The position numbers are program-made. Positions 3,001 through 6,000 of a DNA stretch of 64,000 bases are shown here, in pieces (position 1 is the stretch's first letter; every line of letters starts with the position of its first letter). The stretch lies in assembly GCF_057098645.1 (NCBI RefSeq), contig NZ_CM169472.1. One strand, written 5' to 3'.

Positions 3001-6000
3001 GGCGGTGCTTTTGCCGTTACGCACCACCCCGTCAGTAGCTGAACAGGAGGGACAGCTGATAGAAACAGAAGCCACTGGAGCACCTCAAAAACACCATCAT
3101 ACACTAAATCAGTAAGTTGGCAGCATCACCTCTTTAAGCATGCCATTAATATTTCTGCAATGCTCAACTGCGCTATTGTAAACATTTTTAACTTCATCAT
3201 TTGTTTCACGAAGCATTTTTACTGTTGTCGGTAGATTCTCGGCTGCATCATATGCTTCATTTATAGTTTTAATTTTCTCTTCTATATTACCAGTTTCAGC
3301 TGCAATTGCAGATATACCTGAATTATATAATTCTAATCTGCGTAAAATTTGCTTTGGTAATAAATTTCTATCTTTCAGCCTCTCAAATGAAAAAAGGTCA
3401 TTAATCCTATGAGAGATATATAACATTGAAATAACATAAGATGGTATAGCGGTCTGTTGAACTGATGCGTTACCATTGTTTATATGATTAATATTTTGCT
3501 GAGCATGATCCAGAGTGTAAATGAGCGCATCAATTACTGCAATGTCATCTGAAGATGGTACAAATTCCTGCATCTGATTAATTCTATCAGATAACATTTT
3601 TGGTAGTTCTATCAGATCCTCTTTATGTAAAAAAGGAAATGTGTACGGCCCAAGGTTTATAAAATCTTCCACAGGGAATACAAGACCATTAAGTGTTGTA
3701 TGTAAATTATCTAGTTTCTCTTTTAATTCAGTTAGTTTTTCGTTCATTAAAAAAATCCTTTATGACGCTATAGAACTTCCAGAGTAATCCGATAAAGATA
3801 TCATAAGACAATATTTTGGTATAAACACTTATTGCGCGCGCTCGTATCCCCGCCACGCCTGCCCGCTTTATGTAGTGGTTTTCATGCACCTGCATGATCT
3901 ACGCAAAAGCCCGCCAGAACTGGCGGGCCTTAACACAAAAGATCCTCAAACGATCATGCGATCTCATGCAGCATAGACATGCGCGCTTATGCAGAATGTG
4001 CAAAATCGTAACATACTCAGTAAGCGTGAAAACTAGAACGTGACAGCCTTGTCAAAGCCAGAAATAATTGTATAAGAAATAGACGAGTTATCAGCCTTGT
4101 TCACTTTGAACTTGGCACCTTTGTAAGCGATAACGTCACTTCCCTTAGAATCTACAGAAAAATCTGTTGTAAATGCTGCACGAGCCATATCGTTTGCAAA
4201 TTCACGATAGGTGAACTTCATTACACCGCCTGCATTTCCATTGTATTCGATAGTCTTAACCAATGAGTTACTAACTCGACACAGCCCATCAGGAACACGT
4301 TTGATAGAAATTTCTGATGCAGTATAAGAAGTACCATTTGGCGGTGATATCTCATTTTTTGCAGCATCGTAACTAACATAATCAACATAGTTACCGATTT
4401 GCCCATAGAGATTTTTTAACGCAACAGCTTGAGGGTTATGATAATTGCGGTAAATTCCATTCCCCTCACTGCAATATGTACCAGCAGCGATAGAAGACAA
4501 TGCACCATTAGCCGCACCAAGTTCTAGTACGTCCGTTTTAAATCCAGTAGCAGATGTGATAATGGGATCGCCCATGTAGGCGGTAGCACTTTGCCCAATA
4601 GCAGGCTTCACCACTTCAATAGCAGTGATATTTCGGTTAGAAGCATGTGGCACGCAACCAGTTAGGATTACAGCAAGAGATATTGGTAACGCTACATTAT
4701 TAATTTTCATTTTTAGCCTATTATTCTTTTCTTGACAAAAAACAAGGCGATATCCGATTGACATCGCCTCTCACTCATATGTAACCCTTTTTGATTAGTA
4801 AAAACAAGCGTCTATTGACAAAATCAATGCAGCCAGCTGTCGTCTTCCCACACCTTCTGCATAATTTTCATCACTTGTTTTCTTTCTTCGTCCAGTTGCA
4901 GTCCGGTCAGTTCCACACCGTTAGAGCTACCTTTACGGATACGGATTACCGTTTTGGGATACAGGGGGCGCAGATTGCGGTAAAGCTCGGATTCAAGGGC
5001 GTCCAGGGTAGACTGGCTAATCTTCTGCTCTTTATCGATCATTATTTCAATGCGCATAAAAGTCACCTCAGCTGATGACATCCATTGAGCGGTTGTATTC
5101 GTGGCTTCTGATTTTTGCCATGAGTTCATCAGTCAATTCAGAAACCCACTGCAGAGCCAGCCCCTTCTCTTCATCACTACACTCACTAGCCGCTACAAGC
5201 TTAAGAAAAAAATCAATGCGCTGGAGCTTCAAAGACTCCAAAAAATAGTCCTGCATCTTTCCTCCTATGACACCACAAGAAATACTGTATGTATAACCAC
5301 TGTTTATATTTACAGTATATAATAATCTTACTGATGTAAAACGTTTTTTTTACGCTTATCAGCTTGATATGCCTGGTATTATTAAGAGCACGAATTGTTA
5401 ACCAGCGTAATTAATACAGGTTCCGCCACTTATCATCTTCCTGCAAACGCTGGTTCCGATAGAAGATACGCAGGCCTGCTCCTGACGGAATACTGCCGCC
5501 GCGAAGGAGTAAATCGACCTCTTTCTCGCTGCCATCAAATCCTCTGGATTTCAGTTCATAGACGAGCTGCTGTCGTTGATGGTCTGTAATTCGCTGTTTG
5601 TAGTCTCTACGCCGTTTCGGTTTCACCAGACGTAACCTTGCAGCCAGTTCCCGGCGCTCCTTTTTGTTCATACTGTGCAGGTAATCGTGCAACTCCTTGT
5701 CATCCATGCGGGTAAAGTCCGTTCTGGGGTCCCCATCAGCTGATTTATCTTTCTCCTGTTGGTTCAAATTTTCAGCAAGGGGACAGTTATTGCCACGAGT
5801 CCAAGGGGCGCAAGCGCCCTGGTCGGCTGCCGCCTCCTGAACGTCAACGGCCTTACGAACCATTTTCCACTTCACTGCATGAGTACAAATCTTGCCCTCT
5901 GCAATGGGTGACCAGATGCCATAAATACGAATACCGTGATCGCCATAGGCGGTCGGCTCTTCGTTAATTTCATAAGCTGTTCTGATAAGGTGATATTTGC

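What the first reader, a model, noticed from the sequence alone, without database searches (positions are those of the whole stretch)
4033..4710. Lipoprotein of unknown family in the same prophage cargo slot
A 225-aa lipoprotein (lipobox LTGC) with its own terminator lies between the dinI-like gene and the IS1-disrupted gene. Phage-encoded lipoproteins at genome ends are often superinfection-exclusion factors that block receptors, but this sequence does not resemble the exclusion lipoproteins I can recall (TraT, Cor, Llp).
Basis: inference. Interest (0 to 1): 0.45.

Follow-up and report, generated by a model that had tools for sequence, protein, structure and literature searches.

The report
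Orphan-family lipoprotein cassette in prophage
A defective P2/186-like prophage carries a one-gene insert encoding an outer-membrane lipoprotein from a large, unstudied family found almost only on phages and other mobile elements, probably to block rival phages, which nobody has tested.

Summary
A 225-aa ORF lies on the minus strand at 4033-4710, with a signal peptide and the lipobox LTGC (Cys19). It sits between a DinI-like gene and an IS1-split gene of a 186/Fels-2-like prophage.

The gene is real: dN/dS is 0.04-0.07. It is a discrete 843-bp, low-GC cassette (3983-4825). The cassette lies exactly between the stop codon of a LexA-controlled tum/dinI operon and a conserved 151-bp backbone segment. 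That backbone segment supplies the downstream terminator, so the terminator is not the gene's "own".

The protein matches only PHROG 1353 (unknown function). Pfam, NCBIfam, PADLOC and PDB give no match, and a confident all-beta AlphaFold model has no fold neighbour. The family is nevertheless large: 2,434 50%-identity clusters.

In 13 of 14 contexts examined it is solitary cargo of mobile elements:
- P2-like prophages
- siphovirus prophages, typically just upstream of the tape-measure gene (the HK97 gp15 slot)
- SSU5-like phage-plasmids
- satellite-like islands
- islands carrying defence genes

Among phage records it occurs only in temperate phages.

The best reading is an envelope-level superinfection-exclusion or anti-phage lipoprotein of a new family. 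That rests on context only; the function is untested. Interest is moderate.

The parts
4033..4710 (-). Lipoprotein CDS, 225 aa (WP_000700647.1; Fels-2 STM2726 homologue; PHROG 1353)
   Evidence: dN/dS 0.04-0.07.
4654..4710 (-). Signal peptide with lipobox LTGC (residues 1-19; Cys19 is the predicted lipidated N-terminus; +2 residue is Val)
   Evidence: Outer-membrane sorting is inferred from the E. coli +2 rule (established knowledge).
3983..4825 (.). 843-bp insertion cassette (39.7% GC). It is absent from 'empty-site' P2-like prophages, where 83 bp of unrelated filler lies between the same two flanks.
4734..4770 (-). Intrinsic-terminator-like hairpin (11 bp, dG -16.5 kcal/mol) followed by a U6 run, inside the cassette and 5' of the lipoprotein start. 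It is conserved with a compensatory C-G to U-A change in an 88%-identical allele.
3832..3982 (.). Conserved backbone segment bounding the cassette. It contains the hairpin 3913-3932 (minus strand, dG -21.8, then UUUU), which probably terminates the tum/dinI transcript and, here, the lipoprotein transcript.
4824..5057 (-). DinI-like (TumB-like) gene. Its stop codon marks the right-hand cassette boundary.
5068..5256 (-). 62-aa ORF, first gene of the tum-like operon (phrog_698)
5299..5317 (-). Perfect LexA box TACTGT-N8-ACAGT upstream of the 62-aa ORF and DinI-like gene. This is the SOS-controlled promoter region from which read-through could reach the lipoprotein gene.
   Evidence: Fels-2 STM2727 was induced 5-15-fold by a mutagen (PMC2225428).

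Best explanation
The feature is a single-gene mobile cassette (a 'moron'). It occupies the slot immediately downstream of the SOS-controlled tum/dinI operon of a 186/Fels-2-like prophage.

It encodes a secreted, lipid-anchored, all-beta protein. [quoted passage not shown]

The most likely function is protection of the cell carrying the element against other phages at the envelope, that is, superinfection exclusion. Two mechanisms fit: masking a conserved envelope component used for adsorption, or intercepting the incoming tail tip or tape-measure protein in the periplasm so that genome delivery fails.

Shown here: the gene is real and under strong purifying selection; lipoprotein signals are conserved across the family; the cassette boundaries are exact; the gene is independent of its neighbouring cargo; the family is restricted to mobile elements and temperate phages.

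Inferred: outer-membrane location (from the +2 rule), expression, and the anti-phage function itself.
For: 1. Lipoprotein signals are conserved family-wide, and no member has Asp at +2.
2. dN/dS is 0.04-0.07.
3. The cassette has exact boundaries, low GC (39.7% against 46-54% in the flanks), and presence/absence polymorphism. Other cassettes (DUF8087, DUF6236, HNH) occupy the same site.
4. The identical protein sits beside at least 15 different downstream cargo arrangements, so it acts alone (Table S5 of PMC9122126).
5. It lies in the gpA-gpQ hotspot, where old, tin and many validated defence systems reside (PMC9122126).
6. 13 of 14 homologue contexts are mobile elements:
   - siphovirus prophages, with the gene between the tail-tube/chaperone genes and the tape-measure gene (L002-4, L011, L013-15, L076, L077). 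This is the slot of the HK97 exclusion moron gp15 (PMC3594210).
   - another prophage (L075)
   - SSU5/pHCM2-like phage-plasmids
   - satellite-like integrase islands (L007-9, L074)
   - islands with a retron, AbiC or an OLD-family nuclease (L005-6, L071-73)
7. Among 50,697 phage records, family members occur only in temperate phages.
8. Related alleles carry their own sigma-70-like promoter, and one also carries its own terminator, as morons expressed from a prophage do.
Against: - There is no functional evidence of any kind, and no paper mentions the protein's function.
- There is no sequence or fold similarity to any known exclusion protein.
- This allele lacks a convincing promoter and is preceded by a strong terminator-like hairpin behind a LexA-repressed operon. 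It may therefore be silent in the uninduced lysogen.
- P2-like phages adsorb to the LPS core (my knowledge), so self-exclusion by masking a protein receptor is not an obvious need.
- The protein is about three times larger than Llp or Cor.
- One chromosomal context (Cronobacter, L016) has no phage genes within the 16.7-kb locus (8 kb each side of the gene).
- Hotspot location is only guilt by association. Rousset et al. also found non-defence cargo there.
Confidence: 0.4

Rival explanations
1. It functions in the phage's own induced (lytic) cycle and not in the lysogen. It would be co-transcribed by read-through from the LexA-controlled tum/dinI promoter after DNA damage. The lipoprotein would then modify the envelope of the induced cell, either to stop progeny or other phages from adsorbing to or injecting into doomed cells and debris (Llp-like timing), or to assist release.
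For: - A perfect LexA box lies upstream of the operon, on the same strand as the gene.
- No convincing own promoter was found in 4711-4825 (and inspection).
- In Fels-2, STM2726-STM2727-STM2728 was listed as a co-responding operon after mutagen treatment, and STM2727 was induced 5-15-fold (PMC2225428).
- T5 Llp is made early in infection (bioRxiv 10.64898/2026.03.26.714494, abstract).
Against: - A stable hairpin plus U6 lies between dinI and the gene.
- The 79% allele in the same slot has a sigma-70-like promoter instead of the hairpin.
- Family members also sit in satellite-like and integrase islands in which no lysis or virion genes were seen in the stretch examined.
- The family is absent from virulent phages.
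Confidence: 0.17
2. It is a lysogenic-conversion envelope factor that benefits the bacterium for reasons unrelated to phages, comparable to Bor/Iss or TraT. Candidate benefits are serum or complement resistance, adhesion, or envelope stress tolerance.
For: - It is a predicted outer-membrane lipoprotein carried by prophages of E. coli, Klebsiella and Salmonella isolates from humans and animals.
- Its size is similar to TraT (my knowledge).
Against: - No match to any Pfam model at E<=1. Pfam includes the TraT and lambda Bor families (my knowledge).
- The family extends to environmental Geobacter, Gallionella, Psychrobacter, Planctomycetes and many metagenomes, which argues against a function specific to animal hosts.
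Confidence: 0.15
3. It is an orphan immunity or inhibitor protein. It would neutralise a toxin or hydrolase that acts in the periplasm, such as a bacteriocin, a T6SS effector, a tailocin or phage-tail lysozyme, in the way that lysozyme-inhibitor or immunity lipoproteins do.
For: - It is a secreted all-beta lipoprotein.
- In Cronobacter it neighbours four LprI-domain genes and a peptidoglycan-binding protein.
- Mobile elements are known to carry orphan immunity genes (my knowledge).
Against: - No cognate toxin gene lies adjacent in 13 of 14 contexts.
- No similarity to known inhibitor families (Ivy, MliC/PliC, PliG) in the Pfam or PDB searches.
Confidence: 0.12
4. It is a non-functional hitch-hiking ORF or an annotation artefact.
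For: - No known function.
- The prophage in this window is itself crippled by two IS insertions.
Against: - dN/dS is 0.04-0.07.
- The protein is 100% identical across E. coli and Klebsiella, and 99% identical in Salmonella.
- 2,434 family clusters exist, with conserved signal peptides and motifs.
- The AlphaFold model is confident, with mean pLDDT 80.
Confidence: 0.02

Closest known systems
T5 Llp and the Cor proteins of phi80/N15/T1 (receptor-blocking exclusion lipoproteins)
   Same: Phage-encoded, made with a lipoprotein signal peptide, and targeted to the outer membrane. Each is a single gene acting alone. Llp binds FhuA from the periplasmic side (PMC9586334; bioRxiv 10.64898/2026.03.26.714494).
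   Different: There is no sequence similarity, and no annotated exclusion PHROG or Pfam family matches. The mature protein is about 206 aa, against roughly 60 aa for Llp or Cor. It is not linked to a receptor-binding-protein gene. The target is unknown. It is carried by temperate elements of many types, whereas llp is a gene of the lytic phage T5.
HK97 gp15 (the first described moron; blocks genome injection)
   Same: It is a solitary accessory gene. In siphovirus prophages, family members occupy the same slot between the tail-chaperone and tape-measure genes (PMC3594210). It is an envelope-located product of a temperate phage.
   Different: gp15 is a small inner-membrane protein of the YebO family, not a lipoprotein (PMC3594210). 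There is no homology. In the window the gene sits in a P2-type hotspot, not in a tail operon.
P2 old and tin, and other cargo of the gpA-gpQ hotspot of P2-like phages
   Same: Same genomic region. The same swap-in, swap-out behaviour is seen among otherwise near-identical prophages (PMC9122126).
   Different: Those are cytoplasmic nucleases, ATPases, retrons and similar proteins. This is a secreted lipoprotein with no PADLOC match. It occupies a separate sub-slot, proximal to dinI and set apart from the main cargo slot by a conserved 151-bp segment.
TraT (plasmid surface-exclusion and serum-resistance lipoprotein) and lambda Bor/Iss
   Same: Outer-membrane lipoproteins encoded by mobile elements. 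TraT is of similar size (my knowledge).
   Different: No Pfam hit at E<=1, and no fold match in the PDB.

Membership tests
Bacterial lipoproteins (signal peptidase II substrates) | N-terminal signal peptide with a charged n-region, a hydrophobic h-region and the lipobox [LVI][ASTVI][GAS]C | tested here: met
   The N-terminus is MK-INNVALPISLAVI-LTGC. Cys19 is invariant in 58 diverse homologues. 234 of 270 family members have a strict lipobox. No dedicated predictor (LipoP/SignalP) was available.
Bacterial lipoproteins (signal peptidase II substrates) | Actual lipidation, cleavage by LspA, and outer-membrane sorting | not testable with these tools
   Only the absence of Asp at +2 (Val here; A/V/T/S across the family) suggests Lol-dependent outer-membrane sorting.
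PHROG 1353 (phage protein family of unknown function) | Full-length match to the family HMM | tested here: met
   E = 3.1e-105, residues 1-223 aligned to profile positions 1-230 of 230.
Moron (Juhala/Hendrix sense) | Discrete insertion relative to related phages, with deviant base composition | tested here: met
   An 843-bp cassette stands against an 83-bp filler between identical flanks. GC is 39.7% against 46-54%.
Moron (Juhala/Hendrix sense) | Own promoter and own terminator allowing expression from the repressed prophage | tested here: inconclusive
   This allele has no convincing sigma-70 promoter. It has a terminator-like hairpin 5' of the gene, and the 3' terminator belongs to the backbone. 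The 79% allele has TTGATG-17-TATGAT. The 57% allele has a TG-extended -10 element plus a terminator right after the gene.
Llp/Cor receptor-blocking exclusion lipoproteins | Sequence homology to Llp or Cor | tested here: not met
   PHROGs, Pfam and NCBIfam scans at E<=1 return no annotated exclusion family.
Llp/Cor receptor-blocking exclusion lipoproteins | Blocks adsorption or DNA entry through a specific outer-membrane receptor | not testable with these tools
   Requires adsorption, plating-efficiency and injection assays.
TraT / lambda Bor-Iss lipoproteins | Match to the Pfam TraT or Lambda_Bor models | tested here: not met
   Zero Pfam families at E<=1. None among 58 homologues.
Known anti-phage defence systems (PADLOC-DB v2) | Match to any defence-protein HMM | tested here: not met
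   Zero hits at E<=1.
Any structurally characterised fold | Significant structural neighbour of the AlphaFold model | tested here: not met

The most novel reading that the evidence does not exclude
The protein founds a very widespread, structurally orphan class of single-protein envelope defences. These would be outer-membrane lipoproteins spread by temperate phages, phage-plasmids and satellites across Proteobacteria. They would stop incoming phages after adsorption by intercepting the tail tip or tape-measure protein in the periplasm. That mechanism would explain the family's recurrent placement next to tape-measure genes.
Probability: 0.25. Interest if true: 0.7.

Novelty: new variant of a known kind. 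Interest (0 to 1): 0.45.

Why it matters
Envelope-level exclusion proteins are far less well catalogued than cytoplasmic defence systems, because they are small, diverse and invisible to defence-finding tools.

This family has more than 2,400 clusters at 50% identity. It has no Pfam model and no recognisable fold. It is cargo on at least five unrelated kinds of mobile element, which makes it a well-defined, easily clonable candidate.

If it excludes phages, it would add a new protein family and probably a new envelope target. It would also explain part of the 'unknown' cargo in P2 and satellite hotspots, and would matter for phage-therapy host-range prediction in Klebsiella, E. coli, Salmonella and Acinetobacter.

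If it does something else, it is still a major uncharacterised lysogenic-conversion gene.

Tried and rejected
- Pfam, NCBIfam and PADLOC scans of the protein gave no family. A Pfam scan of 58 homologues also gave none.
- A profile search against PDB sequences matched only the signal peptide of TrwH.
- Longer family members (314-381 aa) were checked for informative fused domains. They contain only internal insertions.
- Literature searches by accession, locus tag, PHROG number and topic found no functional study. The protein is listed but was not tested in Rousset et al. 2022, and it is absent from the supplements of the 2026 P2/P4 preprint.
- An Rfam scan of 3100-5500 found nothing.
- A two-gene system with the neighbouring 463-aa gene was considered and rejected. 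The identical lipoprotein sits beside at least 15 different neighbours.
- A 21-codon upstream ORF spanning the 5' hairpin (4713-4778) was considered as a leader peptide and rejected. It is interrupted by a stop codon in the 96% allele.
- The search for related loci with the diverse alignment failed because no stretch was conserved enough.
- A lysis role (spanin-like) was rejected. The prophage has LysB/LysC, and the family also occurs on islands in which no lysis genes were seen in the stretch examined.

Full report
**Observation**

The window's first ~15.7 kb is a 186/Fels-2-like (P2-family) prophage, 99-100% identical to the one in E. coli HS. On the minus strand, 4033-4710 encodes 225 aa beginning MKINNVALPISLAVILTGC. 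RefSeq annotates exactly this CDS as a hypothetical protein, WP_000700647.1. The Fels-2 homologue is STM2726.

The signal peptide and lipobox are canonical. Cys19 is invariant in an alignment of 58 homologues that are only 21-56% identical to it. Of 270 full-length family members, 234 carry a strict lipobox. Several of the other 36 have lipobox-like sequences with unusual residues just before the Cys, and some have ordinary SPase I signals. The +2 residue is A, V, T or S and never Asp. By the E. coli +2 rule (established knowledge), that predicts outer-membrane sorting.

The gene is under strong purifying selection, with dN/dS of 0.04-0.07 against alleles of 79-96% identity.

A DinI-like gene (4824-5057) lies upstream. 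Downstream is a 463-aa hotspot gene split by IS1 (2363-3129, 9-bp duplication).

**Anatomy of the locus**

Comparison with 1,279 E. coli genomes that share the flanks shows that only 49 of 5,426 complete genomes carry the gene.

In prophages without the gene, two blocks remain: window 4826-5200 (the tum-like operon) and window 3832-3982 (a 151-bp conserved segment). These are separated by only 83 bp of unrelated filler (L018). The lipoprotein therefore sits on an 843-bp cassette, 3983-4825. Its GC content is 39.7%, against 46-54% for the flanks.

Other cassettes occupy the same site in other strains: DUF8087, DUF6236 and an HNH endonuclease.

It is thus the terminator of the upstream operon, which the cassette borrows.

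The conserved segment also divides the gpA-gpQ region into two slots. One is the dinI-proximal slot holding the lipoprotein. The other is the larger portal-proximal slot holding the variable cargo, here the IS1-split 463-aa gene. Across IMG/VR prophages, the 100%-identical lipoprotein sits next to at least 15 different cargo arrangements in that second slot. Table S5 of Rousset et al. lists it with AIPR and other partners. It is therefore an autonomous one-gene module.

**Expression signals**

Upstream, on the same strand, a perfect LexA box (TACTGT-N8-ACAGT, 5299-5317) precedes a 62-aa ORF and the DinI-like gene. This is the arrangement of the 186 tum antirepressor operon. The Fels-2 equivalent, STM2727, is induced 5-15-fold by a mutagen, and STM2726-2728 was listed as a co-responding operon (PMC2225428).

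Between the DinI stop codon and the lipoprotein start lies an 11-bp hairpin (dG -16.5 kcal/mol) followed by U6 (4734-4770). It is kept, with a compensatory C-G to U-A change, in an 88% allele. I found no convincing sigma-70 promoter between 4825 and 4711. The one consensus match (4709-4738) would start transcription inside the ORF.

Other alleles differ. The 79% allele in the same slot has TTGATG-17-TATGAT and no hairpin. A 57% allele elsewhere has a TG-extended -10 element and a terminator immediately after the gene.

For this allele, then, expression in the uninduced lysogen is unproven, and SOS read-through is a live alternative.

**What the protein is**

Only PHROG 1353 (unknown function) matches, at E = 3e-105 over the full length. 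Pfam, NCBIfam and PADLOC give nothing, and no member of a 58-sequence alignment hits Pfam meaningfully.

The family is nevertheless large. A profile search of 1.84 billion representatives finds 2,434 clusters at E<=1e-3 and 1,256 at E<=1e-10, nearly all 210-240 aa. They come from Enterobacterales, Acinetobacter, Psychrobacter, Moraxella, Aeromonas, Geobacter, Gallionella, Planctomycetes and many metagenomes.

The conserved elements are the lipobox Cys, an N-terminal motif (P36...G47) and a C-terminal ~75-residue domain (residues 144-219, with G158, Y168, R169 and E170). Longer members have only insertions between these elements.

**Where the family lives**

I examined 14 independent contexts.

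- *P2-like prophages*: E. coli, Klebsiella (100% identical protein) and Salmonella Fels-2/RE-2010 (99%).
- *Siphovirus-type prophages and phages*: in K. aerogenes, A. soli, A. baumannii (Ab1656-2) and A. gyllenbergii, plus one truncated prophage remnant in which no tape-measure gene survives, the gene follows the tail-tube and chaperone genes. In the four that retain a tape-measure gene, it lies close upstream of it. In Moraxella phage Mcat28 it lies among tail genes.
- *A lambda-terminase-type prophage*.
- *SSU5/pHCM2-like phage-plasmids*: 95-128 kb IncFIB plasmids of E. coli, Shigella, Citrobacter and Klebsiella.
- *Small integrase-plus-primase/Rep islands resembling satellites*, in Psychrobacter and Aeromonas.
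- *Recombinase-bounded islands carrying defence genes*: a retron, putative AbiC, or an OLD-family nuclease and an nSTAND NTPase, in Geobacter, K. pneumoniae and Pantoea.

Only one context, a Cronobacter islet beside proBA, has no phage or integrase genes within the 16.7-kb locus (8 kb each side of the gene). The gene is solitary in every case.

In the 50,697-record phage collection, all full-length family members are in temperate phages. None was found in a virulent phage.

**Interpretation**

The chaperone/tape-measure slot is where the HK97 moron gp15 sits. gp15 is a prophage-expressed protein that blocks genome injection in a tail-dependent way (PMC3594210). The gpA-gpQ region of P2-like phages holds old, tin and many validated defence systems (PMC9122126). 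Cargo ends of satellites are likewise rich in defence genes (bioRxiv 10.64898/2026.02.27.708500).

A secreted, lipid-anchored protein that moves alone among such positions is most economically explained as an envelope-level superinfection-exclusion or anti-phage factor. I give it 0.40.

The main rivals are:
- a role in the induced cell, through SOS read-through with Llp-like timing (0.17);
- a lysogenic-conversion factor unrelated to phages, like Bor or TraT (0.15);
- an orphan immunity or inhibitor protein against periplasm-acting toxins or hydrolases (0.12).

A junk ORF is excluded by the selection and conservation data.

**Comparison with known systems**

The protein probably works like Llp/Cor, or like the injection blockers gp15 and Ltp, but it is not a member of any of those families. 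Homology was tested and not found, and it is about three times the size of Llp or Cor. Membership holds only for 'bacterial lipoprotein' and 'PHROG 1353'. It meets the insertion and base-composition criteria of a moron. The own-promoter and own-terminator criterion is inconclusive for this allele.

**Verdict**

This is a real, well-delimited, strongly conserved gene of a large, uncharacterised, structurally orphan lipoprotein family that is specific to mobile elements. Its kind (a phage accessory lipoprotein, probably for exclusion) is known, but the family and any mechanism are new and untested. Interest is moderate at 0.45: it is a good experimental target and not, on present evidence, a surprise.

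Noticed in passing
window 2363-3129: An IS1 copy (768 bp, terminal inverted repeats found, 9-bp target duplication relative to E. coli HS) splits the 463-aa hotspot gene. That gene is a coiled-coil/membrane protein (phrog_34659) with a weak JetC/SMC-like hit. Its fragments lie at about 3131-3747 and 1580-2362.
   Followed up: partly
window 7417-10055: A 2.6-kb IS21-family element is inserted in the prophage replication endonuclease gene A. It carries an IstA-like transposase (8288-9934) and an IstB-like ATPase (7516-8514). The A-gene ORF here is 635 aa, against 804 aa in E. coli HS. With the IS1 hit, this suggests the prophage is defective, while the lipoprotein gene stays intact.
   Followed up: partly
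window 5299-5317 (minus strand): A perfect LexA box, TACTGTAAATATAAACAGT, lies upstream of the 62-aa ORF and the DinI-like gene. This is a 186 tum-like SOS-inducible antirepressor operon.
   Followed up: partly
window 3832-3982: A 151-bp segment with a strong hairpin is conserved in over a thousand E. coli P2-like prophages. It divides the gpA-gpQ hotspot into two independent insertion slots, one proximal to dinI and one proximal to the portal gene. No Rfam match. It is probably the tum-operon terminator.
   Followed up: partly
window 4713-4778 (minus strand): A 21-codon upstream ORF spans the 5' hairpin and stops 2 nt before the lipoprotein ATG. It is interrupted by a stop codon in the 96%-identical allele (L048), so it is probably a chance ORF.
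   Followed up: yes
protein cluster look-up: The 90%-identity cluster containing this lipoprotein has a 308-aa branched-chain amino-acid transaminase (IlvE) as its representative and includes many IlvE members. This looks like a clustering artefact in the protein collection, not biology.
   Followed up: no
L016 9760-12740 (Cronobacter turicensis): Next to a chromosomal family member lie four tandem LprI-domain genes and a 312-aa protein with a faint peptidoglycan-binding (PG_binding_1) domain hit. This could be an effector/immunity array.
   Followed up: no
Microcystis phage vB_MaeS-yong1 5934-6128; Acinetobacter and Marinobacter plasmids: In these records only the C-terminal ~70-residue domain of the family gave a tblastn match. 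It may be a separable module.
   Followed up: no
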